A stretch of 64,000 nucleotides of DNA from the human T2T-CHM13v2.0 reference genome, Homo sapiens. Of this stretch, positions 1-26,244 are shown in pieces. The notes under the pieces were generated by a model. That model saw only the letters and a program-made list of their open reading frames with translations. It had not been told where the DNA came from and made no database searches. The stretch lies in NCBI RefSeq assembly GCF_009914755.1, contig NC_060948.1; one strand, written 5' to 3'. Made by a program: the position numbers and the translations under genes. The number at the start of each line of letters is the position of its first letter. Position 1 is the stretch's first letter.

Positions 1-215
1 ACATTTCAGAATCCTGGATGATTTGCTGCTAACAGCACTCTGAGGTCCTGCCATGGAACCTCCTATCTAGTGCAGCATTTGGGTTATTGAAGCCCTATCT
101 TTTCAGTGCATCTATTTCATTTAAGTTTAAACTGATTACAATGTACTGGAGGCAAAGACCTTTTTCTTCCCCTCCCTCTTTTTATCCCCCACTCAACAGC
201 TGATTGCAGTGCACT

Positions 216-230
216 ATGAGGACTGAATGA
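216..230 (+). promoter_or_regulatory. uORF MRTE* overlapping the ATG227 start (ATGA overlap)
   Basis: ATG AGG ACT GAA TGA; the stop at 228-230 overlaps the ATG at 227-229. Confidence 0.75.
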
Positions 231-258
231 CAGTGGGTTTTAATTCAGATATTTCAAG
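227..258 (+). CDS. PCDH11Y: PCDH11Y first coding segment (MTVGFNSDIS-S) within the 59-bp exon 200-258
   Basis: Polypyrimidine tract then caacag| acceptor (198-199) and AAG|gtgagt donor (259). ATG227 reads MTVGFNSDIS+AG (phase 2) and splices in frame to 24419 giving [17 protein letters not shown], matching the recalled PCDH11Y isoform N-terminus. Confidence 0.9.
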
Positions 259-7724: not shown

Positions 7725-8855
7725 TTAATGTGAGATTAACCCTGATCACACCACTTGCATTTCAACTATTGTTTAGTATGATGGCATTTCAATTGGCAGT
7801 TTTCCTTACAGTGATCTGTCTACACATGCACGCACATAAATGCACACAAGGGCATATGTTCACAGTGAAACACAAAGATTATTATTTTAAACATATAAAT
7901 AAAGCATCTCATGAATATTTCTCAGTTACAAGTTGGCTAGTGTTTGTTGGTCCAGCAAGCAATACTGCATCCAACTCTGTAGAGGCAGAACTTGTATATT
8001 CTTGATTTCCCATTTGATGGTTACTTAGAATTGTTTTGAGGTTAATGCACTTCTTGATTTATAAATAAAACGGGGGTTGCATTTCATTCTTCTTCCAATA
8101 TACTATTATATTACCCCTTTGAAGGCTTGTTCTTTACTTGTGGTGAGAAGGCATGGAATATGCTGAATGAAGGCTAATGATAAATCATTTTTCATTTCTT
8201 AATGAGTTGGAGTGGGGTTTGTGGTTGTCCTAAGTGAGAAACAGAAAAAAAAATTTAAAGAAGAGGAATCTAAAAATATTGTGAAAACATGTAGGATTAG
8301 TTAAATTAATTTAAATATTTTACTTACTAATAGTTTGAAAAACTGATTTCCTAAGAACCACTTAGTATAATTTGTAGTGAAAATAACTACAGGTGAAGGT
8401 CATGCATAAAATATACTCTTACCAGAAAACTTTAGGTTTTTGAATAAAATGGAATTCATAAAATAATGAACACTCCAAGTTATTATAAATCACTCCGATT
8501 ATTTCTTGAAGTCTTTGCTGGTTGTTGTAGTGATATATTCTTGGAGGAAAAGGTTTAAAACAAAAGAATTGGTGACCCGAATCTCCAGCAAGCATCTTTT
8601 TTTTTTTTCCTTTCTTTTTTTCATTTTTATTTTTATTTTTATTTTTTATTATTATACTTTAAGTTTTAGGGTACATGTGCACATTGTGCAGGTTAGTTAC
8701 ATACGTATACATGTGCCATGCTGGTGCGCTGCACCCACTAACTCGTCATCTACCATTAGGTATATCTCCCAATGCTATCCCTCACCCCTCCCCCCACCCC
8801 ACAACAGTCCCCAGAGTGTGATGTTCCCCTTCCTGTGTCCATGTGATCTCATTGT

Positions 8856-12682
<3,827 letters not shown>

Positions 12683-12745
12683 TATGATGTTAGCTGGTTA
12701 TTTTGCTTGTTAGTTGATGCAGTTTCTTTCTAGTCTCGATAGTCT

Positions 12746-13762
12746 TTACATTTTGGCATGATTTTGCAGTGGCTGGTACCGGTTGTTCCTTTCCATGTTT
12801 AGTGCTTCCTTCAGCAGCTCTTTTAGGGCAGGCCTGGTGGTGACAAAATCTCTCAGCATTTGCTTGTCTGTAAAGTATTTTATTTCTCCTTCACTTATGA
12901 AGCTTAGTTTGGCTGGATATGAAATTCTGGGTTGAAAATTCTTTCCTTTAAGAATGTTGAATATTGGCCCCCACTCTCTTCTGGCTTGTAGGGTTTCTGC
13001 CGCGAGATCTGCTGTTAGTCTGATGGGCTTCCCTATGAGGGTAACCCGACCTTTCTCTCTGGCTGCCCTTAACATTTTTTCCTTCATTTCAACTTTGATG
13101 AATCTGACAATTCTGTGTCTTGGAGTTGCTCTTCTCGAGGGGTATCTTTGTGGCGTTCTCTGTATTTCCTGAATTTGAATGTTGGCCTACCTTGCTATAT
13201 TGGGGAAGTTCTCCTGGATAATATCCTGCAGAGTGTTTTCCAACTTGGTTCCATTCTCCCCATCACTTTCAGGTACATCAATCAGACGTAGATTTGGTCT
13301 TTTCACATAGTCCCATATTTCTTGGAGGCTTTGCTCGTTTCTTTTTATTCTTTTTTCTCTAAACTTCCCTTCTCACTTCATTTCATTCATTTCATCTTCC
13401 ATCGCTGATACCCTTTCTTCCAGTTGATCGCATCAGCTCCTGAGGCTTCTGCGTTCTTCACGTAGTTCTCGAGCCTTGGTTTTCAGCTCCGTCAGCTCCT
13501 TTAAGCACTTCTCTGTATTGGTTATTCTAGTTATACATTCTTCTGAATTTTTTTCAAAGTTTTCAACTTCTTTGCCTTTGGTTTGAATGTCCTCCCGTAG
13601 CTCAGAGTAATTTGATCGTCTGAAGCCTTCTTCTCTCAGCTCGTCAAAGTCATTCTCTGTCCAGCTTTGTTCCGTTGCTGGTGAAGAGCTGTGTTCTTTT
13701 GGAGGAGGAGAGGTGCTCTGCTTTTTAGAATTTCCAGTTTTTCTGTTCTGTTTTTTCCCCAT
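12746..13762 (-). pseudogene. L1 ORF1p (MGKKQNRK...NHAKM), full span but with in-frame stops
   Basis: 1017-nt span equals canonical length; stops at 13433-13435, ~13373 and ~13187. Confidence 0.92.
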
Positions 13763-14049
13763 CTTTGTGGTTTTATCTACTTTTGGTCTTTGATGATGGT
13801 GATGTACAGATGGGTTTTTGGTGTGGATGTCCTTTCTGTTTGTTAGTTTTCCTCCTAACAGACAGGACCCTCAGCTGCAGATCTGTTGGAGTACCCTGCA
13901 GTGTGAGGTGTCAGTGTGCCCCTGCTGGGGGGTGCCTCCCAGTTAGGCTGCTCGGGGGTCAGGGGTCAGGGACCCACTTGAGGAGGCAGTCTGCGTGTTC
14001 TCAGATCTCCAGCTGCATACTGGGAGAACCACTGCTCTCTTCAAAGCTG

Positions 14050-14666
14050 TCAGACAGGGACATTTAAGTCTGCAGAGGTTACTGCTTTCTTTTTGTTTGT
14101 CTGTGCCCTGCCCCCAGAGGTGGAGCCTACAGAGGCAGGCAGGCCTCCTTGAGCTGTGGTGGGCTCCACCCAGTTGGAGCTTCCGGGCTGCTTTGTTTAC
14201 CTAAGGAAGCCTGGGCAATGGCGGGCGCCCCTCCCCCAGCCTCGCTGCCGCCTTGCAGTTTGATCTCAGACTGCTGTGCTAGCAATCAGCGAGACTCCGT
14301 GGGCGTAGGACCCTCCGAGCCAGGTGTGGGATATAATCTCGTGGTGCGCCGTTTTTTAAGCCCGTCGGAAAAGCGCAGTATTCAGGTGGGATTGACCCGA
14401 TTTTCCAGGTGCCATCCGTCACCCCTTTCTTTGATTAGGAAAGGGAACTCCCTGACCCCTTGCGCTTTCCGAGTGAGGCAGTGCCTCGCCCTGCTTCGCC
14501 TCGCGCACGGTGCGCGCACCCATTGACCTGCGCCCACTGTGTGGCACTCCCTAGTGAGATGAACCCAGTACCTCAGATGGAAATGCAGAAATCATCTGTC
14601 TTCTGCGTCGCTCACGCTGGGAGCTGTAGACCGGAGCTGTTCCTATTCGGCCATCTTGGCTCCTCC
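14050..14666. promoter_or_regulatory. L1 5'UTR CpG-rich bidirectional promoter (sense promoter with YY1 site; antisense promoter firing on + strand)
   Basis: High CpG density at 14200-14650; intact CAAGATGGCCG YY1 motif (minus strand, ~14648-14658). ASP position is from established L1 biology. Confidence 0.7.
14218..14526 (+). CDS. L1 ORF0 (antisense ORF of the 5'UTR), MAGAPPPASLPPCSLISDCC..., 102 aa here
   Basis: gcaATGg strong context; uninterrupted frame in the ORF track; donor-like sites after nt +106 (14323) and +191 (14408). Expression not shown. Confidence 0.75.
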   Translation: MAGAPPPASLPPCSLISDCCASNQRDSVGVGPSEPGVGYNLVVRRFLSPSEKRSIQVGLTRFSRCHPSPLSLIRKGNSLTPCAFRVRQCLALLRLAHGARTH

Positions 14667-15397
14667 CTCCAGCAAGCATTTCTTAAGCACTTACTGTGTA
14701 TTTGGTACAGTGCCCATGAACTGCTAAGTTAAATATAATGTCTTAAAATTGTTGGTATATATTTGGAATGATTCATTTGCTTTGAGTTGAGATTCATAAT
14801 ATAAAATATTATGGATCTATACAGTTGTTTACATTTAAAACTGATATTTATAGAGAATAAATTTTATATCTAAATTGTTATTTTTGAAGAGCTCAATCTT
14901 TGTGTATTACGTAGGGAGTTGTCTTGAGAAACGTCTAATTTTTACCGCTCATCTTTTTGCACTTTCAAATATACTAATACTTTTGAAGCAGGACCCAACA
15001 GGCCTTCTCTAAAATTAAATTTTCTCACATGTAGCAAGGTTATTTTGAATGCCCAAATTGAAGTTTAAATGGTTAATATTACATTTATATTTGGAGTTAA
15101 AATGTATTAAGACACAGTTGAAATAGTAACTCATTGTAAGTATAAAGAATATTGCTAAATAGAGAAAACATTTTCTTATGTATTTACCTAGATGAAAGAG
15201 AAAGGAAAAATTATACAAACACTAACATTTATACCTTATCTTTGTATGAACATCTTGTAAATACATTTGAATTTTCTCTTATAGATGCTATTCCTTCCTG
15301 AAAACCAGGCTGAACCCAGTACATGCTTTTATAGTGAAACTAAAGAACACACAAGAAGTAGGGTTTATTTTAACTTATAAATGCAAATTCCATTTTA

Positions 15398-17050
15398 CTT
15401 ATTTTTTAATGGGAAAAATATTTACTTTATTTCTTTAACTTTTATTTTAGGTTCAGGTATGCATGTGCGGGTTTGTTATATAGGTAAACTCATGCCACAG
15501 GAGTTTGCTATACAAATTATTTCATCACCCAGGTACTAAGACTAGTATGCAATTTTTTTTTTCTGCTCTTCTCCCTCCTCCCACGCTCCATGCTCAATTA
15601 GTCCCTAGAGTCTGTTGTTCCTTTTTTTGTGTCTATCAGTTCTCATCATTTACATCCCACTTAAAAATGAGAACATTCAATATTTGGTTTTCTGTTCCTG
15701 CATTAGTTTGCTGAGGATAATGGCCTCCAGTTCCATCCATGGTCTTGCAAAGGACATGATCTCCTTAGTTTTTATTGCTGCATAGTATTCCATGATGTAT
15801 ATGTACCACATTTTCTTTATTCAGTCTGTTATTGATGGACATTTAGGTTGATTCTATGTATTTACTATTGTGAATAGTGCTGCAGTGAACATTTGTGTGC
15901 ATGTGTCTTTATGGTAAAATGATTTATGTTCCTCTGGGTAGTTACCCAGTAATGGGATTACTGGTCAAATGGTAGTTCTAGTTTTACCTCTTTGAGGAAT
16001 CACTATGCTGCTTCCCACTATAGTTGAACTAATTTACACTCCCACCAACATTGTAAAAGTATTCTCTTTTCTCTGCAACCTCGCCAGCATATGTTATTTT
16101 TGACTTGTTAATAGTAGCCATTCTGACTAGTGTGAGATGATATCTCATTGAGATTTTGATTTGCATTTCTCTAATGATCAGTGATATTGAGCTTTTTTTC
16201 ATATGCTTGCTGGCCACATGTTACTGTCTTCTTTTGAAAAGTGTCTCCTCATGTCCTTTGCCTACTTGTTCATGGGGTTGTTTTTTTCTTGTAAACTTAA
16301 GTTCCTTATAAATGCTGGATATTAGACCTTTGTCAGATGCATAGTTAGCAAATATTTTCTCCCATTCTGTAGACCGTCTGTTTACTCTATTGATGGTTTC
16401 TTTTGCTCTGCAGAAGCTCTTAAATTTAATTAGATCCCATTTGTCAATTTTGCTTTTGTTGTGATTGTTTTTGGCATGTTCATCATGAAATCTTTGCCAC
16501 TTCCTTTGTCCAGGATGGAATTCCCTAGGTTGTCTTCCAAGGTTTTATAGTTTTGGGTTTTATGGATATTTAATTCATTTTGAGTTGACTTTTGTACATG
16601 GTGTAAGAAAGGGGTCCAGTTTCAATTGTCTGCACATGGCTACCCAGATGTCCCAGCCCGATTTGTTGTGTAAGGAGTCTTTTCCCTACTGCTTGTTTTC
16701 TTCAGCTTTGTGGATGATCACGTGGTTATAGGTGTGTGGCCTTTTATCTGGGCTCTCTATTCTGTTCTATTCGTCTATGTGTCTGTTTCTGCACCAGTAC
16801 CGTTACTGTAGCCCTGTAGTATAGTTTGAAGTCAGGTAATGTGATGCCTCATGTTTCGTTCTTTTTGCTTAGGATTGCCTTGACTATTTGGGGTCTTTTT
16901 TTGTTCCATATGAATTTTAACATAGTTTTTTTCTACTTCTGTGAAGAGTGTCATTGGTAGTTTCATATGAATAACAATCTGTAAATTGTTTTGGGTGGTA
17001 TCCCATTTTAATGATATTTATTCTTTCTATCCATGAAATAGTGTTTGATT
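15398..17050 (-). mobile_element. 5'-truncated older L1 (L1PA13-16-like) 3' end
   Basis: 3'UTR 'tttattttaggttcagg..gtttgttatataggtaaact' plus ORF2 C-terminal homology; flanked by a 25-bp direct repeat. Confidence 0.9.
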
Positions 17051-17078
17051 ATACTTATTAATGCAAATTCCATTTTAA

Positions 17079-17346
<268 letters not shown>

Positions 17347-18154
17347 AAAAGGCAGAATTCTTTATCATTTTTTCTACTCTAAGTGTATCACAACTGAAGA
17401 TTCGAAATATGGCTTGTGTGTGTCACATTTATGGTTCAGTTGTTTTTCTATTCATTTATTAATTAATGTTGTCATTTTTAATTGGTTATCCATTTTTTTG
17501 GTTTTGAGGTGACACAAAACAAAAATCACAGAAATAATATTAAAATATGTGTAAAAAACTGAGAACTAAAAGGATAAGGAATATTGTTGAACCTTTAGGC
17601 TGAGGCATCTGTTATTAGGCAGTTGATAAACCAAGTCTTAAGATTGGTTTTAAAAGGTTGCTATGTCATTTTTCCTTAGCGTTCTAAGATGTGTAGTTAC
17701 TGATTATGGATTGTGCAACTCCAAAGTCATCTTAATAGGAAGAGCTTCATTGTCTCACGGGGTGAATGAATGCAACTATTAAAGTCATTTCTCTGTTCCT
17801 TGGAACAATAAGTTGATGGATATAATTCATTTTCTGACAACTAATATCTTACCTTGATTTGTTTTACAGACCATCAACTTGGATCTTGTTTTTAGCCATC
17901 ACTTCCAAGATTCTGGTGCTATATCTCATTTGCTTTCAACTGTTGATTTTACTGCATTGTAATTTGATAATTTAGACCCCAACACAAAAAATAAATTAAG
18001 TCATGCTAGAATATGCACCATACGTATATAGGGGAGTAATCTGATAAAATGCTTTGTGCAGATATTGCAATTAGTACTGAAGTTTGGGGAGGTGTGCAAT
18101 CAATAGTAAAATATTAATTGGTCTTTGTACATAGATAATTTAAACACTAATATG

Positions 18155-18336
18155 ATAGATATATTACTACCTGTTTTCCTGTACTGTTTTATTAATTCAT
18201 GGAATAGTGACTAATAGAAGTATTATTTAGCCTTATATATAAAACTCATAGATATAATACTGTTTTGTGTACTGTTTTATTAATTCATGGAATAGTGACT
18301 AATAGAAGTACTACTTATCCTTATATATAAAACTCA
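18155..18336. repeat. Tandem duplication, 2 copies of ~88-92 bp
   Basis: gtactgttttattaattcatggaatagtgactaatagaagta at 18181 and 18269. Confidence 0.95.
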
Positions 18337-20732
18337 AAATAGCCTTTTCAGCAAATACCCAGTGAAGACACAAATATATATATTACACACACACACACAC
18401 ACAATTATATATATATATGAAGAAACCACATTTGTTAACAAATGACTAAAATTGTCATGCCTGAACCCTCCATTATTGAACATCACCTCTCCATACCCCT
18501 TGATCTCTTTAATTTTGTGATGCTATACCACCTCCATAATTTCACCCATGAATAATAGATTCCAAGCCCATCACTTTCTGTTTCTTTCTCTTTTCTTTTG
18601 CAAACACTTTTCCTTTACACGAGGGACCTTTGGTTACCTTCTTAAAATGTGATTATCTAGAAAATTTACAGAATGTGAAATTAATGCCTATTTGATAAAA
18701 AATATTTAATATATAAAGCAATGCCTACAGATATGTATATATATCACATAGTTGTTATACAGATTAAATGAAATAACTGATTTAAAATCACATAGAGCAA
18801 TTCAAATACTACACCAAGTGGAAATTATCCTTTTTGATGAATTTAGGACTTATTTATTATGATAATCTGGTACTTGTTGACAAAGTACAGTAAAATAATT
18901 ATTAGATACTGAAACAAGCAATATTACATTCACCCTGAGGCAATAGAAGAATGTGTGATGATAGACAAACGTTATATTTTTGCCATGAAGAATGTGTCTC
19001 TTGCTTGATTATTCTGTAAAGCCATGTTTCAAATGTTCCCTAAATCATATATCAAAAATCCAGAAAAATTAATATAGAAGAGAAACCTTTAGAATTTGTC
19101 TTATTAAGTGCTATTTGAGCTTGATTATTATCAGATTTTGAAACCCTGTTAGAGAACACCACACTAACTGTTGTTGGAATGATAGAATGAATCAGCAAAC
19201 AATAAATAATTTGGAGAAGGAAGCAGCATTGATGGAATCCACTTCTCAGAGAAGTTTAGACCCAAATGTGAAAAATTAGACATGTACAATAAGTACAGTA
19301 AGCAAGCTGTTTGTGGAATAAAATTTAACAAACCAGTTATATAATTACTGTGCCTTATTAAATTTTTTATTTTGACATCTCAAGTTTCAGAATACACAGG
19401 AAATAATTACATAAAATTGGACAGCCAATGCCCTTGCCCGCCTCTGCTTGCTGTGGTCAGTTCCTCTGAAAATACTAGGTTTATCGGTTGCTCCAATTTG
19501 TCTTTCTCCCAGTGTGGTTACTTTTATTGCAATGTTCTAGATTCCTGTCAACCTCAAGAACTACCTTATTGTTTACCCAGGCTGTGAAAGAAGCTTTGCT
19601 TGTATTTGAGACCAAGAACACAACAGTAGTGACCACCTAACATATTATGGCTGTTAAATGGTGTATTTTTGACTTAATGAAACATTGAAATAATTGGAAT
19701 GATGAGATTTAAGTGGAGTTAGGATAATGGGCAGCAGATAGATATTTCTTATCTTCATGTAATACTTAAATTTGTACTATTGTAGAAATTGTACAAAAAT
19801 TGTAGCATATAAACCATTCACTCATGTGTTTGTTGTTGTAGCATATGATCCAGTAATTCACATAGAATTCATTTAAATATATTACAAATGAAACCAGCAC
19901 TATAATGCAGAAAAAATTTAAAAAATATCAAGGAAATTATGCCTTGAAATTCTTCTGACAAAGCATTTGAACATTAATTGTGTGGTTTGAAATTTCTAGA
20001 ATTGCGTATAGTAGATGCCTAGCTCCCTTACCTACTCAGAGATGATAAAATGAACTTCCATTTTTGCTTTATATATCTTTAAATTTTCAGAGATGCTTAT
20101 TTTATTTCTGCTTTTGCTTTCTCTAATTGTCATTATTGTGTCCCTCTAAATACAACTATTGCTTACCCAACCGTGATGTCTTGCTGATAAAGGGCATCAC
20201 TTAAATAGCATGGGCACTACTGGAACTTGTCAAAAATTTTAGTTCTTTATATCTTCTTTTGTGTTGTTTCCTTTATCAATTTCCAAACTAACATTAATCT
20301 ATAGTAGGAGTGGGTTGTAGGAGAAGGGCAAAGAAATTTAAGGTTACCTTGTCACATTTTTCATGAGACAGAAAAATTAGAATGTAATTTACATACATTA
20401 AGATACGTATGTAGGCATATTTTCCCTGGATATCTGAGTTAAATGTGCCATGCTTCCATAAGACTAAGCAGTGATTATTTATATCCATATTTAGTAGCTA
20501 AATTTCTGTACTGTTCATTCAAAGAATTAAACTCAGCATTTTCAAAGAAAACTTAATAAATTTTAAAGATAATAAATTTTCAAGTGGCAAATGTGAGAGT
20601 TGAAATCAAAATCTGGAGATTGAGGTTACTTAAACATGCATGTTCACATCCTGGTAGAAGCAGAGATGAGTTCATTATACAGTAATTGAACACTGAATTA
20701 AAGACATACTAGAATATATTATCAAATATAAA

Positions 20733-20818
20733 CTCTGTTTTGTTCACTGATGTACCTTCAGTGTCTAGAACTGTGCTTGACATATAAAAATTGCTTAATA
20801 AGTATTTGTTGAATAAGT
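20733..20818 (+). mobile_element. L2 3' end relic
   Basis: 'tgttttgttcactgatgta..gtgtctagaactgtgcttgaca..aataagtatttgttgaata'. Confidence 0.7.
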
Positions 20819-21017
20819 GGCTAAACCTCCATGAGTTCATTTCATCTCAAACTCTTTATTAACTAGAGGGTGAATATTCCTTCTAGGTTGGCAACATATA
20901 TATTCACTTAAGCTTTAGAAATGGTATTTTTTCTCAATATTTCTTCCCTGTTTTTAAAACCACTGAATGAATTTCCGGTTATGAAACACATTTTAAAATG
21001 TTTTATATGATGATGGT

Positions 21018-21612
21018 ATTGTGGAAGACAGTGTGGCAATTCCTCAAGGATCTAGAACTAGAAATACCATTTGACCCAGCCATCCCATTACTGGGTATAT
21101 ACCCAAAGGATTATAAATCATGCTGCTATAAAGACACACGCACATGTATGTTTATTGTGGCACTATTCACAATAGCAAAGACTTGGAACCAACCCAAATG
21201 TCCATCAATGATAGACTGGATTAAGAAAATGTGGCACATATACACTGTGGAATACTATGCAGCCATAAAAAAGGATGAGTTCATGTCCTTTTTAAGGACA
21301 AGGATGAAGCTGGAAACCATCATTCTCAGCAAACTATTGCAAGGACAGAAAACCAAACACCACATGTTCTCACTCATAGGTGGGAATTGAACAATGAGAA
21401 CACTTGGACACAGGGTGGGGAACATCACACATCGGGGCCTGTTGTGGGGTGGGAGGAGGGGGGAAGGGTAGCATTAGGAGATATACCTAATGTTAAATGA
21501 CGAGTTAATGGGTGCAGCACACCAACATGGCACATGTATACATATGTAACAAACCTGCATGTTGTGCACATGTACCCTAGAACTTAAAGTATAATTAAAA
21601 AAATTAAAAATA
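21018..21612 (+). mobile_element. 5'-truncated L1PA4-6-like 3' end, sense orientation
   Basis: ORF2 C-terminus (..TKHHMFSLIGGN), G-rich 3'UTR, aacttaaagtataa then A-rich tail. Confidence 0.93.
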
Positions 21613-21797
21613 AAGATAGAGTAGAACAGATTTAGAATGGATTGAGGGAGGGTGACTTCTTGGAACTAGATCACTCTATTAATTATTTATGTTGTGTAGA
21701 GATATTGCGACATGCATGCAATGCTTTTATTTCTTTATTTTGCTTTATTTTGTTTTTCATTTTGGGCGGTTATCCCAGGAATTCAAGGTGGTTTTAT

Positions 21798-22052
21798 CTT
21801 TTTTTTTTTTTTAATTTAACTTTTATTCTGAGTTCAGGGGTACAAGTGTAGGTTTATGTAAGTAAACCTGTGTCATGGGGGTTTGTTGTACAGATTATTT
21901 CGTCACCCAGGTATTAAGCCTAGTACCCATTAATTTTTCCTGATCCTCTCCCTCCTCCCATCTTCCAACCTCCAATAGGCCCCAGTGTGTGTTGTTCCCC
22001 TGTATATGTCCATGAGTTCTCATCATTTAGCTCCCACTTATAAGTCAGAATA
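21798..22052 (-). mobile_element. L1PA13-16-like 3'UTR fragment
   Basis: T-run then 'ttttattctgagttcaggggtaca..catttagctcccacttataag'. Confidence 0.85.
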
Positions 22053-24353
22053 TCCTGCAATGTTTTTAAAAACAGTCTGTAGTATTCTTCTGCCAGTTGT
22101 AATAATGTGTAATACCTAAGGGTAAGATAAGAATAGAGCGATAATTTTAATTCCAATTGTCACTGCCCCATTTTTATTTCTGCTTATGTTTGCATGACAT
22201 TTATAAAATCACATAAGCATCCAAAACGTCTTAGATATGCTAGATTCACAGCATATAGAACACATATATGTGTGCATATTAGCTGGTAGTATCAATGGGG
22301 TATTTTTAATCTCACCTTCATAACAGAGTATAAAACCAAAAATTCACAAGACTGAATTTTGAGCGAGTTTTTATATTATGTAATCCCAATGCACATCATT
22401 GTACAAATGATGCTAAAAATACTATACCACAGGCAACAGTGTTTTTATGTTGTTTACTAGGATAAATAATGTCTTCACCTCTAGCATTACTCACTATCAT
22501 AACTAACATATTTTATATATGATACCAACTGCTTAACATAGGAAAGTCATTGAATTCATAATATATATTTTTAAAATGTTGTGATAAAAATTAATGAGAT
22601 ATTTTAAGTCTACTGCTGACCTAAACTATCTTGATTGTTGCAACAGATGCATTTATTTGATTATTGATTGTAAATAGAAAGATTTCTTTTTTTCCAATTT
22701 TGTGTATTCCAACATTGGCATATGCATATTTTAAAAAATGCAGATGTGCAGCTATGCAATGGGACAGTTATTTCATATAACACATTGCTTGGCATAACCA
22801 GAGCACAATATCCATAACAAGTTATTTATATCATATGTAGTCCTCCTGTTTTTAGAACAATTACTAAAACTTGTTGATGTTATCGATTACCAATAAATAT
22901 TGAGAAATTCCTTAATTGGTTACCTATATGCATTAATACATTTCTGGAATGGAATTTTAAATAACCACCTGAACACTGAGTTTTCAAAACTGCTAAATAC
23001 CTTAATAGTTGCATTAACCTTCATTTAATTATAAAAGTATGACATCTGATAGGCTTTAGCTCAGTGTGATACAAATTTAATTTTGTTTATATAATATATC
23101 ATCTACAAGTACTATCCAGAAGAAGCACATTAGAATGTTTAATTATACTAGAGATTAAAAGATATTTAATATATAAACTTGAGAATAAATAAAATAGAGA
23201 ATAAGAATTGAGAATTATGAAAGGAAACTGAAGGTAAAATTTGCAGATTTTAAGAAAATCAAAATCCCTCATTGAATTTTGTCAGAAGAGTTCAAGAACT
23301 GAAATAATTTTAAAGCTTTCAGTGAGTGAAAAATAATAGGGAGAAGTAGCAAGAGAGATTGATTTTTGACTCACTTTCAACTCGGTACTGTTTTTAAATG
23401 CCTTTCTTATTTTCAAGCCCTTCTCAAGCTGTTCCTTGAAGTTGTATAATTCCTGTTAGTCTATAGATGTGAAAACCCATTTTTATATGAACTACCTTCT
23501 GCGTTCTATAAACATAAATTCTCAGGGTTGGGATGTCTTCTAGTCTAACTCTCCCATTGAATGTTTGGACGTCATCTACCAAATCCGTGTATCTAAAGCA
23601 AATATAGTAGATCTAATCTGGTGGTCCAGTACCTCCAAAGATATGGAATACACTCCTGAAATATCCTGAAACCTTTTTTTTTTCAGAATCCTTTAATAAG
23701 CAGTTATGTCAATCTGAAAGTTGCTTACTTGTACTTTATATTAATAGCTATTCTTGTTTTTCTTATCCAAAGAAAAATCCTCTAATCCCCTTTTCACATG
23801 ATAGTTGTTACCATGTTTAGGCGTTAGTCACATCAACCCCTCTCCTCTCCCAAACTTCTCTTCTTCAAATCAAACTTTATTAGTCCCTCCTTTATAATGA
23901 TTCCTTGCCTCCTTTTATCCAGATCAATTTTTTTTCACTTTGATGCCCAGAGCTGAAGAAATGGACTATTGTATAAATTATTCATTGCCAAGAGAATAAT
24001 TGCATTTTAAACCCATGTTATAACAAAGAATAATGATTATATTTTGTGATTTGTAACAAATACCCTTTATTTTCCCTTAACTATTGAATTAAATATTTTA
24101 ATTATTTGTATTCTCTTTAACTATCTTGGTATATTAAAGTATTATCTTTTATATATTTATCAATGGTGGACACTTTTATAGGTACTCTGTGTCATTTTTG
24201 ATACTGTAGGTATCTTATTTCATTTATCTTTATTCTTAATGTACGAATTCATAATATTTGATTCAGAACAGATTTATCACTAATTAACAGAGTGTCAATT
24301 ATGCTAACATCTCATTTACTGATTTTAATTTAAAACAGTTTTTGTTAACATGC

Positions 24354-24418
24354 ATGTTTAGGGTTGGCTTCTTAATAATTTCTTCTTCCTCTTCTCTCTC
24401 TCCTCTTCTTTTGGTCAG
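24354..24418 (+). CDS. PCDH11Y: Alternative N-terminus [21 protein letters not shown] of PCDH11Y isoforms with a 5'-extended exon
   Basis: ATG at 24354 is in frame with the cadherin ORF (ORF track 24342..25052) and matches the recalled PCDH11Y long-isoform N-terminus. Confidence 0.85.
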
Positions 24419-24989
24419 TGTTGTGCGGGTTAATACAACAAACTGTCACAAGTGTTTGTTGTCCGGGACGTACATTTTCGCGGTCCTGCTAGTATGCGTG
24501 GTGTTCCACTCTGGCGCCCAGGAGAAAAACTACACCATCCGAGAAGAAATTCCAGAAAACGTCCTGATAGGCAACTTGTTGAAAGACCTTAACTTGTCGC
24601 TGATTCCAAACAAGTCCTTGACAACTACTATGCAGTTCAAGCTAGTGTACAAGACCGGAGATGTGCCACTGATTCGAATTGAAGAGGATACTGGTGAGAT
24701 CTTCACTACCGGCGCTCGCATTGATCGTGAGAAATTATGTGCTGGTATCCCAAGGGATGAGCATTGCTTTTATGAAGTGGAGGTTGCCATTTTGCCGGAT
24801 GAAATATTTAGACTGGTTAAGATACGTTTTCTGATAGAAGATATAAATGATAATGCACCATTGTTCCCAGCAACAGTTATCAACATATCAATTCCAGAGA
24901 ACTCGGCTATAAACTCTAAATATACTCTCCCAGCGGCTGTTGATCCTGACGTAGGCATAAACGGAGTTCAAAACTACGAACTAATTAAG
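24419..24989 (+). CDS. PCDH11Y: PCDH11Y exon encoding hydrophobic signal-like segment, cadherin repeat EC1 and start of EC2
   Basis: Acceptor tcttcttttggtcag| (24417-24418) and donor AAG|gtgcgt (24990). Translation has cadherin motifs PEN, IDRE, C-x8-C ([10 protein letters not shown]), EDINDNAP and AVDPD. LLVCVV, EEIPEN, IGNLL and TTTMQ match my recollection of the Y copy (X: LLACVV, EEMPEN, IGDLL, TTAMQ). Confidence 0.95.
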
Positions 24990-26244
24990 GTGCGTTTTAA
25001 AATCACTTTGTTAAAGATATCATCTCATTTTTTAAAGAGTAAAATAAAATGATATTAATGTATTTCAAATTTTGAGTAAGCCATCACCCCAATTTTTCAA
25101 AATTTATGTAATTTAAAGCATAGTGGAGAAAATTCATCAATGCAGTTTTTGCAATTACATGTGGATTATGAATTTTCATGGTATGTATATTCATTTTCAA
25201 ACAGTTGTGTTTCCATTAATCTATAAAGGGATCAGACAAGGAGGTTAGCCCTGCTACTTACAAATCAGTAGTTTGCCCAGCTTCATTCTTTTAATCTGTC
25301 CAGTCATGCTTCTGCCAAAAACTTGATATAAGCAAATCATTAAGAATGAATCCATAAATCTGATTATCAATTTTTCCTAGTGATTACTTTAGATACACAA
25401 ATTTTATCTTGCCATTTGATATGGTGCCAAATAAATCTATTTGAGAGGTGACTAGAACAATTTAATTTATTACTAGCATTTCTGAACATATATAGATAAA
25501 TATTTTTCATGAGGATTTCAAGGTAAGGCAAGGTCTTTAGCATATCCTGAATCATCAAATTGAGATTAAATTTTAGTCAATGTTCTGTTAATGTTAAATA
25601 TTTTCTTTTTTTACAATTATTTGAAAACAGAGTGTTCATTTGTTGTAAAGGGTAAGTAAGCCTTTTAACAAAAAAGAGTCAATCAGTTAATTTGAATAAC
25701 CTATTCTGGCTTGATTTGGGTCTTAGGATGGAGAAGTTAGAGAGAAGAATAGATAGAATATTTGGTATTCTTCAAAATATGTGCAGAGGGGGCACATTTA
25801 TCAAGTTAATGATCAATTCTTTTAAATTACTTATATGTTATAAAGAGAAATAGATAACTCAGATTTGGGTATGTGAAATAGTACAATGCACTTGAATGAT
25901 CTTGGAAAATATATGTTAATGAAATAACTAATGTGCATGTTTCAGATAGATATGTTCAGGGGATTTTCACACTTTTATAAATATTCTGCCAAACTATGAT
26001 CTATATAATAACTAGTGTTAAAAATATGCCCCAAAACATATAAATAAGACATTCTGATATATATCATCTGAAGGTTTTGACCTGGAGGATATATAATATG
26101 GGAAAATTTCTCAACTAATGCTGATCTATTGTAAAGATATATTTATTTATAAATTCATTCAGGAATGGAAGGCTACAAACCTCTTGAGCAAATTTCGGTG
26201 AAATGCAGATATGTTTGAGTATATGAAGTGAAAACAGAAAGAGA

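What the first reader, a model, noticed from the sequence alone, without database searches (positions are those of the whole stretch)
14218..24989. Candidate L1 ORF0-PCDH11Y fusion, with a reading-frame switch between Y and X copies
Seen: the intronic L1PA2 is antisense, so its ORF0 (strong gcaATGg at 14218, no stops) runs in the PCDH11Y direction 10 kb upstream of the 24419 acceptor. Donor-like sites fall after ORF0 nt +106 (CAG|gtgtgg, 14323, phase 1) and +191 (CAG|gtgcca, 14408, phase 2). SD2->24419 reads ...[20 protein letters not shown], in frame with the cadherin ORF, adding 63 ORF0 residues. SD1->24419 reads [24 protein letters not shown], out of frame here but in the ancestral X frame. 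Established: the L1 antisense promoter and these two ORF0 donors make fusions with neighbouring exons. Inference: the Y-specific 13-bp deletion swaps which donor is productive. An L1-driven, methylation-sensitive transcript could give PCDH11Y a better start codon than its own weak ones. Caveat: SD2 here lacks +5G and is likely weak.
Basis: partly seen in the sequence, partly recalled or inferred. Interest (0 to 1): 0.85.

Follow-up and report, generated by a model that had tools for sequence, protein, structure and literature searches.

The report
Intronic L1 ORF0 upstream of PCDH11Y exon
An old, dead LINE-1 element in a PCDH11Y intron carries the usual antisense mini-gene (ORF0) that could on paper be spliced in frame to the next protocadherin exon, but the fit is about what chance gives, the in-frame splice site is weak, and nothing shows that such a transcript exists.

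Summary
Joining 14408 to the annotated acceptor 24419 is in frame with the cadherin ORF; 14323 to 24419 stops after 24 codons. The same L1 lies at the orthologous place in PCDH11X (17.1 kb colinear, 98.4%). There the 13 extra bases make the phase-1 donor the in-frame one.

None of this exceeds chance or family habit. ORF0, its ATG and both GT sites are standard L1 5'UTR features (ATG in 30 of 30 closest copies). With donors of phases 1 and 2, an in-frame fit is expected for 2 of 3 acceptors. SD2 here matches the donor consensus at 6 of 9 positions, a level that 9% of all 3633 + strand GTs reach. A Y-specific change made a better, out-of-frame donor-like site 23 nt before it.

No RefSeq exon lies in the L1. 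PCDH11 is absent from one EST catalogue of L1 antisense transcripts, and this L1 from a brain and glioma catalogue.

Verdict: ordinary intronic L1; the fusion is an untested, low-odds hypothesis.

The parts
8587..14672 (-). Full-length but dead L1 (L1PA2 or young L1PA3 grade), antisense to PCDH11Y
   Evidence: Masked block in the hub table. Pfam RVT_1, Exo_endo_phos, Tnp_22_dsRBD and Transposase_22 on separate minus-strand ORF pieces, so ORF1 and ORF2 are broken. Poly-T run from 8597. Present at the same place on X.
8583..8595 (.). Left copy of the direct repeat flanking the L1 (target-site duplication; its first bases may overlap the L1 5' end)
   Evidence: Read by eye: the same 13 nt occur at 8583-8595 and 14667-14679.
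14667..14679 (.). Right copy of the flanking direct repeat
13763..14672 (-). L1 5'UTR, 910 nt, the short type without the 129-bp ZNF93 site
   Evidence: A minus-strand ORF starts with ATG at 13762. The 129-bp deletion is described for L1PA3 and younger lineages in PMC7110667 (passages).
14072..14272 (+). Expected place of the L1 antisense promoter (L1 nt about 400-600); placed by position only
   Evidence: The position rule comes from PMC4908685 and PMC9396940 (passages). The Y copy differs from the majority of 28 other copies at 4 of 201 positions; those copies have a median of 3 and a range of 0-9. No activity data.
14218..14526 (+). ORF0, long variant of 102 codons plus stop
   Evidence: No Pfam family. 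The 102-codon form occurs in 19 of the 30 closest copies and the 71-codon form in 4 of 30.
14321..14329 (+). SD1, CAG|GTGTGG, exon end 14323, phase 1; out of frame with 24419 on Y
   Evidence: 7 of 9 consensus matches, +5G present. X has CAG|GTGCAG.
14383..14391 (+). Y-specific donor-like site CAG|GTGGGA, exon end 14385, phase 0; out of frame
   Evidence: 7 of 9 matches, +5G present. X has G at the place of 14384.
14406..14414 (+). SD2, CAG|GTGCCA, exon end 14408, phase 2; the only in-frame donor on Y, and weak
   Evidence: 6 of 9 matches, no +5G. An extra base after GTGC is shared by 24 of the 30 closest copies.
24399..24419 (+). Pyrimidine tract and annotated acceptor; the exon starts at 24419 on the third base of a codon
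   Evidence: hub table.
24419..24989 (+). PCDH11Y exon with the signal-peptide remnant and the first cadherin domain
   Evidence: Hub table; Pfam Cadherin_2; translation.
24455..24456 (+). Site of the 13-base X/Y indel that removes the X start codon
200..258 (+). Annotated alternative exon whose ATG at 227 joins 24419 in frame through a strong phase-2 donor
   Evidence: the join reads [23 protein letters not shown].... The donor AAG|GTGAGT has 8 of 9 matches.
23618..24418 (+). 5' part of the long first exon of other transcripts. There is no AG before 23618 or 23620, so these are start sites. The in-frame ATG is at 24354.
   Evidence: hub table.

Best explanation
This is an ordinary retrotransposon remnant. 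A full-length L1 of the short-5'UTR type inserted antisense into the intron upstream of the signal-peptide exon of ancestral PCDH11X. It was copied to the Y with the whole X-transposed block, and on Y its ORF1 and ORF2 are now broken into pieces. (The X copy's ORFs were not examined.) Like thousands of its relatives it keeps the standard antisense module of the L1 5'UTR: the promoter region, the ORF0 start codon and two internal GT sites.

ORF0 points towards the next PCDH11Y exon because of the insertion's orientation. One of its GT sites has the phase that the exon needs, which is a coincidence of about the expected frequency.

Most likely (inferred) the 5'UTR is methylated and silent in most tissues. 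If its antisense promoter does fire, the expected products are unspliced read-through RNA and the free ORF0 peptide, here a 102-codon variant. Any splicing to 24419 would favour the stronger, out-of-frame GT sites. No meaningful ORF0-PCDH11Y fusion protein is expected.
For: L1 identity and decay.

Orthologous copy on X: 17,129 aligned columns at 98.4%.

The module is family-typical. The sample is the 30 best-scoring of 40 scored hits, out of 4743 first-look candidates, and includes the Y copy and its X orthologue.
- The ATG context is kept in 30 of 30.
- There is no stop before the SD2 place in 28 of 30.
- The SD2 variant with an extra base is in 24 of 30.

The copy is neither unusually conserved nor unusually damaged.
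- It differs from the sample majority at 26 of 894 5'UTR positions; the other copies have a median of 20.5 and a range of 13-48.
- In the promoter region it differs at 4 of 201; the others have a median of 3.

Ongoing decay since the X/Y split:
- There are 7 differences in the 191 nt from the ATG to SD2 (3.7%), against 1.02% in the flanking intron.
- Four of the 7 are scored as CpG transitions.
- A further two, at 14327 and 14328, fit decay of one ancestral CpG, because GTGCGG is the commonest state among relatives (14 of 30).

Weak in-frame donor:
- SD2 has 6 of 9 consensus matches and no +5G. A fraction of 0.09 of all 3633 + strand GTs in the window reach that level.
- SD1 and the Y-specific site at 14385 each have 7 of 9 with +5G and are out of frame.

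Literature:
- Only 57 of about 3200 genic ORF0 loci were seen fused to an exon (PMC4908685, passage citing Denli 2015).
- PCDH11 is absent from the supplements of PMC4908685 (0 of 10 files).
- The supplements of PMC9396940 hold no PCDH11X entry. Their one PCDH11Y entry, with a count of 1 in one sample column, belongs to another L1HS.
- 0 papers hold both PCDH11* and ORF0.
- 3 papers hold PCDH11* and L1PA*. Two were listed. The one I read (passages) is unrelated, the other seems so from its listing only, and the third was not listed.

The hub's RefSeq table lists no exon inside 8587-14672 among 8 transcripts.
Against: No expression, CAGE or methylation data could be consulted, so silence is inferred and not shown.

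The module is intact. The ATG has a strong context, there is no upstream ATG between 14072 and 14217 (read), ORF0 is open, and 15 CpGs remain in the 191 nt (CpG observed/expected 0.90).

The target acceptor is a real, strong, annotated acceptor only 10 kb away. The Y gene already uses the same trick: an upstream exon with a phase-2 donor supplies the ATG.

Young L1s act as alternative promoters of neuronal genes in demethylated neural progenitors (PMC6639357, passages). PCDH11Y is cited among protocadherins whose ectopic expression in cancer is correlated with hypomethylation (PMC7339444, passage).

The catalogues I checked are EST-based or come from 11 brain and glioma samples, and they handle X/Y near-identical reads poorly. 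The primary ORF0 paper and its fusion list could not be read.
Confidence: 0.8

Rival explanations
1. In hypomethylated male cells the L1 antisense promoter fires and ORF0 is spliced from SD2 (14408) to 24419. The product is a PCDH11Y with a strong start codon and a 63-residue ORF0 leader ahead of the signal-peptide remnant.
For: The frame arithmetic holds. The ATG context is strong. ORF0 fusions through two internal donors are an established mechanism (PMC4859970 and PMC5554003, passages). The annotated exon 200-258 shows that a phase-2 upstream exon can supply the Y start codon.
Against: SD2 has 6 of 9 matches, lacks +5G and is at background level among GTs. The extra base that destroys the GTGCGT form is shared by the sublineage, 24 of 30. 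A stronger out-of-frame site lies 23 nt upstream, and SD1 is also stronger. No catalogue entry or RefSeq exon exists (hub table). The hydrophobic core would lie more than 80 residues from the N-terminus, so its use as a signal is uncertain (inference).
Confidence: 0.04
2. The L1 serves as an alternative, methylation-sensitive promoter of PCDH11Y and/or PCDH11X, but the transcripts do not encode an ORF0 fusion on Y. On Y, splicing from SD1 or from 14385 gives a short ORF0-derived uORF. The cadherin is then read, if at all, from the downstream ATG at 24630 and lacks a signal peptide. On X, SD1 would be in frame.
For: SD1 is the better donor on Y, with 7 of 9 matches and +5G. The X phase-1 join is open into MDLLSG.... 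L1 antisense promoters drive neuronal genes after DNMT1 loss. RefSeq's selected Y transcript is annotated to start at 24630 (hub table).
Against: The catalogues are silent here too. The SD1 join on Y stops inside exon 24419-24989 with exon junctions downstream, so nonsense-mediated decay is expected (inference). X SD1 has lost +5G and reads GTGCAG. Most L1 chimeric transcripts are unspliced.
Confidence: 0.1
3. The promoter is occasionally active but gives only unspliced read-through RNA into the intron, plus free ORF0 peptide. There is no link to PCDH11Y coding.
For: [quoted passage not shown] There are 10 AATAAA and 12 ATTAAA hexamers on the + strand between 14409 and 24418. ORF0 is open for 102 codons.
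Against: This L1 is not among the 1571 chimeras of PMC9396940, as far as gene names show. X/Y multimapping may hide it.
Confidence: 0.25

Closest known systems
ORF0-exon fusion loci of primate L1 (Denli et al. 2015, Cell 163:583; known to me only through citing papers)
   Same: Antisense ORF0 with a strong ATG in the 5'UTR of an L1PA-type element, two internal GT donors, the same direction as the host gene, and a proximal annotated acceptor downstream.
   Different: No transcript evidence here. ORF0 is the 102-codon variant. The second donor carries an extra base and lacks +5G. Only 57 of about 3200 loci were reported as fused, and I could not see whether PCDH11X or PCDH11Y is among them.
L1 antisense-promoter chimeric transcripts and alternative promoters (988 EST-supported cases in PMC4908685; brain and glioma LCTs in PMC9396940; DNMT1-knockout neural progenitors in PMC6639357)
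   Same: An intronic full-length young L1, antisense to a neuronal gene, with its promoter region no more diverged than its relatives.
   Different: Not listed in the supplements of the first two. The supplements of the third were not consulted.
Annotated PCDH11Y isoforms with variant N-termini (hub table; Blanco-Arias et al. 2004, title seen only in a reference list)
   Same: An upstream exon with a phase-2 donor (200-258, ATG at 227), or the retained sequence from ATG 24354, reads through 24419 in the cadherin frame and replaces the start codon lost with the 13 bases.
   Different: Those are annotated exons with a strong donor (8 of 9 matches). The L1 exon is hypothetical and its in-frame donor is weak.

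Membership tests
LINE-1 (L1PA lineage), full-length genomic copy | ORF1 and ORF2 (endonuclease and reverse transcriptase) domains in order on one strand | tested here: met
   RVT_1 (E 1e-44), Exo_endo_phos, Tnp_22_dsRBD and Transposase_22 on minus-strand ORF pieces. The frames are broken.
LINE-1 (L1PA lineage), full-length genomic copy | Poly-A tail and flanking target-site duplication | tested here: met
   a T run from 8597, and a 13-nt direct repeat at 8583-8595 and 14667-14679.
   No repeat library is on hand. The 5'UTR is 910 nt, the short type, which fits L1PA2 or young L1PA3. ORF0 residues differ from the 71-codon group among the relatives, which I recall as L1HS-like. The copy differs from the sample majority at 16 of 894 non-CpG positions.
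L1 ORF0 locus | ATG with a strong context on the antisense strand of the 5'UTR, and an open frame of about 70 codons | tested here: met
   The frame is 102 codons here, because one extra base after GTGC shifts it past the stop that ends the 71-codon form seen in 4 of 30 relatives.
L1 ORF0 locus | Two functional splice donors inside ORF0 | tested here: inconclusive
GT sites exist at +106 and +191. SD1 has 7 of 9 matches with +5G; SD2 has 6 of 9 without +5G. Function was not tested.
ORF0-exon fusion transcript or protein | Observed RNA junction between an ORF0 donor and a host exon, in frame | not testable with these tools
   No RNA data. The frame is compatible only in silico. The locus is absent from the catalogues searched, and 0 papers hold both PCDH11* and ORF0.
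L1 antisense-promoter chimeric transcript (LCT) | Transcription start within L1 nt about 200-600 on the antisense strand | not testable with these tools
   The region is present and typical. There are no CAGE or 5' end data.

The most novel reading that the evidence does not exclude
The shared L1 is a methylation-sensitive alternative promoter of both protocadherin-11 genes, and the 13-base loss on Y re-assigned the productive ORF0 donor from SD1 (X) to SD2 (Y). In demethylated male cells, such as pluripotent cells, germ cells or androgen-deprived prostate tumours where PCDH11Y becomes ectopically expressed, a Y-specific ORF0-PCDH11Y protein with a strong start codon would then be made alongside out-of-frame SD1 products. 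This would be a human- and male-specific transposon-gene fusion.
Probability: 0.04. Interest if true: 0.6.

Novelty: new member of a known kind. Interest (0 to 1): 0.2.

Why it matters
PCDH11Y is one of the few human-specific, male-specific brain genes, and how it is translated after losing the X start codon is still described only through variant N-termini. A transposon-supplied start codon would be a neat case of ORF0 exaptation and would link L1 demethylation to PCDH11Y expression in stem cells or prostate cancer. As it stands, the locus adds one more in-silico candidate to some 3000 ORF0 loci. Its main use is as a cheap, well-defined junction to look for in existing male RNA-seq data.

Tried and rejected
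- U1 pairing energy. I computed ViennaRNA duplexfold of each 11-mer against the U1 5' end. The fold is not held in register and did not discriminate. The annotated donor at 24990 scored -6.3 and SD2 scored -6.8, so I used plain consensus matches instead.
- MaxEntScan and SpliceAI are not available.
- Papers not held: Denli 2015, Blanco-Arias 2004 and Speek 2001. The published donor positions, the list of 57 fusions and the original description of the Y N-termini were therefore not seen.
I asked for no further supplements, so the L1 promoter tables of PMC6639357 and PMC10619931, and Table S1 of PMC9396940, which would give the RepeatMasker name of this L1, remain unseen.
- Selection on ORF0 since the X/Y split: only 7 differences, too few to test.
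- I looked for a gene-conversion tract as the cause of the higher X/Y divergence inside the L1. The differences are spread evenly, with no tract.
Full report
1. THE OBSERVATION

Reading the window and translating confirms each sequence statement.

- The ATG at 14218 lies in TGGGCAATGGCGG, with G at -3 and G at +4.
- The frame runs 102 codons to a TGA at 14524-14526.
- CAG|GTGTGG ends an exon at 14323 (nt +106, phase 1).
- CAG|GTGCCA ends one at 14408 (nt +191, phase 2).
- The annotated acceptor at 24419 starts the exon on the third base of a codon, so it needs a phase-2 donor.
- The join 14408 to 24419 reads ...[35 protein letters not shown]... and stays open to 24989.
- The join 14323 to 24419 stops after 24 codons.

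2. WHAT THE ELEMENT IS

The block 8587-14672 is an L1 on the minus strand.

- Separate ORF pieces carry RVT_1 (E 1e-44), an endonuclease domain and the L1 ORF1 domains, so both L1 ORFs are broken.
- There is a T run from 8597, and a 13-nt direct repeat flanks the element.
- The 5'UTR is 910 nt (ORF1-piece ATG at 13762). That is the short form, which lacks the 129-bp ZNF93 site. This deletion is described as fixed within L1PA3 and kept by later lineages (PMC7110667, passages).

The label L1PA2 could not be checked. L1PA2 or young L1PA3 is as far as the data go.

3. THE X COPY

The window's assembly holds a colinear match on contig C23: 17,129 aligned columns at 98.4% covering 8000-25100. The same L1 therefore sits at the orthologous place in PCDH11X and predates the X-to-Y transposition.

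- X has the same ATG.
- X has CAG|GTGCAG at SD1 and CAG|GTGCCG at SD2.
- X has 13 extra bases after the place of 24455, and these hold its ATG.
- On X the phase-1 join reads ORF0(35 aa)[25 protein letters not shown]... and stays open. The phase-2 join runs out of frame.

The polarity, deletion on Y rather than insertion on X, was not tested here.

4. IS IT MORE THAN CHANCE OR FAMILY HABIT?

A search of the assembly with 14150-14672 gave 4743 first-look candidates. Forty were scored, and I examined the best 30, which include Y itself and its X orthologue.

- The ATG context is kept in 30 of 30.
- There is no stop before the SD2 place in 28 of 30.
- SD1 reads GTGCGG in 14 and GTGTGG in 11.
- At SD2, 24 of 30 carry one extra base after GTGC. 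That removes the +5G and +6T of the GTGCGT form (5 of 30; a sixth copy without the extra base reads GTGAGT) and lengthens ORF0.
- ORF0 is 102 codons in 19 of 30 and 71 codons in 4 of 30.

The weak SD2 is therefore a sublineage trait and not a private lesion.

The Y copy is an average member.

- It differs from the majority of the 28 other copies at 26 of 894 5'UTR positions. Those copies have a median of 20.5 and a range of 13-48.
- In the expected promoter region it differs at 4 of 201, against a median of 3.

The frame fit is also unremarkable (my reasoning).

- With donors of phases 1 and 2, two of three acceptor phases find an in-frame donor.
- A 13-base shift leaves both chromosomes with a productive donor in one of three cases.
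- The X case also needs 15 stop-free codons, which has odds of about one half.

5. DONOR QUALITY

By matches to CAG|GTRAGT:

| Site | Matches of 9 | +5G | Phase |
|---|---|---|---|
| SD1 (exon end 14323) | 7 | yes | 1 |
| CAG|GTGGGA (exon end 14385) | 7 | yes | 0 |
| SD2 (exon end 14408) | 6 | no | 2 |

- The site at 14385 exists only on Y, because 14384 is A there and G on X.
- A fraction of 0.09 of all 3633 + strand GTs in the window reach 6 of 9; 0.0165 reach 7 of 9.
- The annotated donors at 259 and 24990 have 8 and 7 matches.

Of the three best GT sites inside ORF0 on Y, only the weakest is in frame. On X the in-frame SD1 has itself lost +5G.

6. DECAY

- X and Y differ at 7 of 191 positions between the ATG and SD2 (3.7%), against 91 of 8945 (1.02%) in the intron after the L1.
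- Four of the 7 are scored as CpG transitions.
- The pair at 14327 and 14328 fits two independent decays of one ancestral CpG.

This is what a germline-methylated L1 5'UTR is expected to show (inference). It gives no sign of constraint on ORF0, though 7 differences are too few for a test.

7. THE GENE'S OWN SOLUTIONS

- Exon starts 23618 and 23620 are not preceded by AG, so they are transcription starts. From there the ATG at 24354 reads MFRVGFLII... through 24419 in the cadherin frame.
- The annotated exon 200-258 has a strong phase-2 donor. Its ATG at 227 reads [23 protein letters not shown]....
- Both ATGs have T at -3. The ATG at 24630, which RefSeq's selected transcript uses, has A at -3.

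Reading through 24419 from an upstream exon is already how annotated Y isoforms work.

8. LITERATURE

Established, from passages only:

- ORF0 has two internal donors and can fuse to downstream exons (PMC4859970, PMC5554003, PMC13517631).
- 57 of about 3200 genic ORF0 loci were seen fused (PMC4908685).
- 2.9% of 1571 brain and glioma L1 chimeric transcripts are spliced at their 5' end (PMC9396940).
- Demethylated young L1s act as alternative promoters of neuronal genes (PMC6639357).

For this locus:

- PCDH11 occurs in 0 of 10 supplementary files of PMC4908685.
- In the 3 supplementary files of PMC9396940, PCDH11X occurs 0 times. PCDH11Y occurs once, for a different L1HS far downstream, with a count of 1 in one sample column.
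- 0 papers hold both PCDH11* and ORF0.
- 3 papers hold PCDH11* and L1PA*. Two were listed. The one I read in passages is unrelated, and the other seems so from its listing only.
- Among 46 papers holding at least two of PCDH11* and four L1-antisense phrases, the 40 listed all have 0 PCDH11 occurrences.

The primary ORF0 paper, the Y isoform paper and Speek 2001 are not held. Supplements closed. Lists in those files may bear on the claim.

9. VERDICT

The sequence features are real but ordinary. The in-frame fit is at chance level, and the in-frame donor is the weakest of three. No annotation or catalogue that I could see shows use of this L1.

- Best reading: an inert or at most weakly read-through intronic L1 (0.8).
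- A real in-frame ORF0-PCDH11Y fusion: about 0.04.
- Some L1-promoted, non-fusion PCDH11X or PCDH11Y transcript: about 0.1.

The decisive test is a junction search in existing male RNA-seq and long-read data.

Noticed in passing
window 8587-14672 against 14673-23617: X/Y substitutions are twice as dense inside the L1 (124 of 6086, 2.04%) as in the intron after it (91 of 8945, 1.02%). They are spread evenly along the element, and only 29 of the 124 are CpG transitions. Ectopic conversion with other L1 copies or higher mutability are possible causes; neither was tested.
   Followed up: partly
window 14383-14391: A Y-lineage change at 14384 (G on X) turns CGG|GTGGGA into CAG|GTGGGA. This is a donor-like site with 7 of 9 consensus matches and +5G, 23 nt before SD2, in phase 0.
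   Followed up: yes
window 200-258: The annotated alternative exon gives MTVGFNSDISS... in frame with 24419 from ATG 227. A 4-codon upstream ORF from ATG 216 overlaps that start codon.
   Followed up: partly
window 8628-9228 and 21018-21618: An inverted pair of L1 3'-end-like segments about 12 kb apart in the intron. They are about 91-92% alike, judged from X/Y cross-matches. They could pair in the pre-mRNA.
   Followed up: no
window 8806-10271 and 15600-17036: A direct, roughly 77-78% similar L1 ORF2-like fragment lies just downstream of the full-length element, as judged from X/Y cross-matches. It is an older L1 remnant.
   Followed up: no
loci L005-L034 (closest L1 5'UTR copies): A 102-codon ORF0 variant, caused by one extra base at the second donor, is the commonest form among the 30 closest copies (19 of 30). 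The 71-codon form is in 4 of 30. I do not know whether this variant is described in print.
   Followed up: partly
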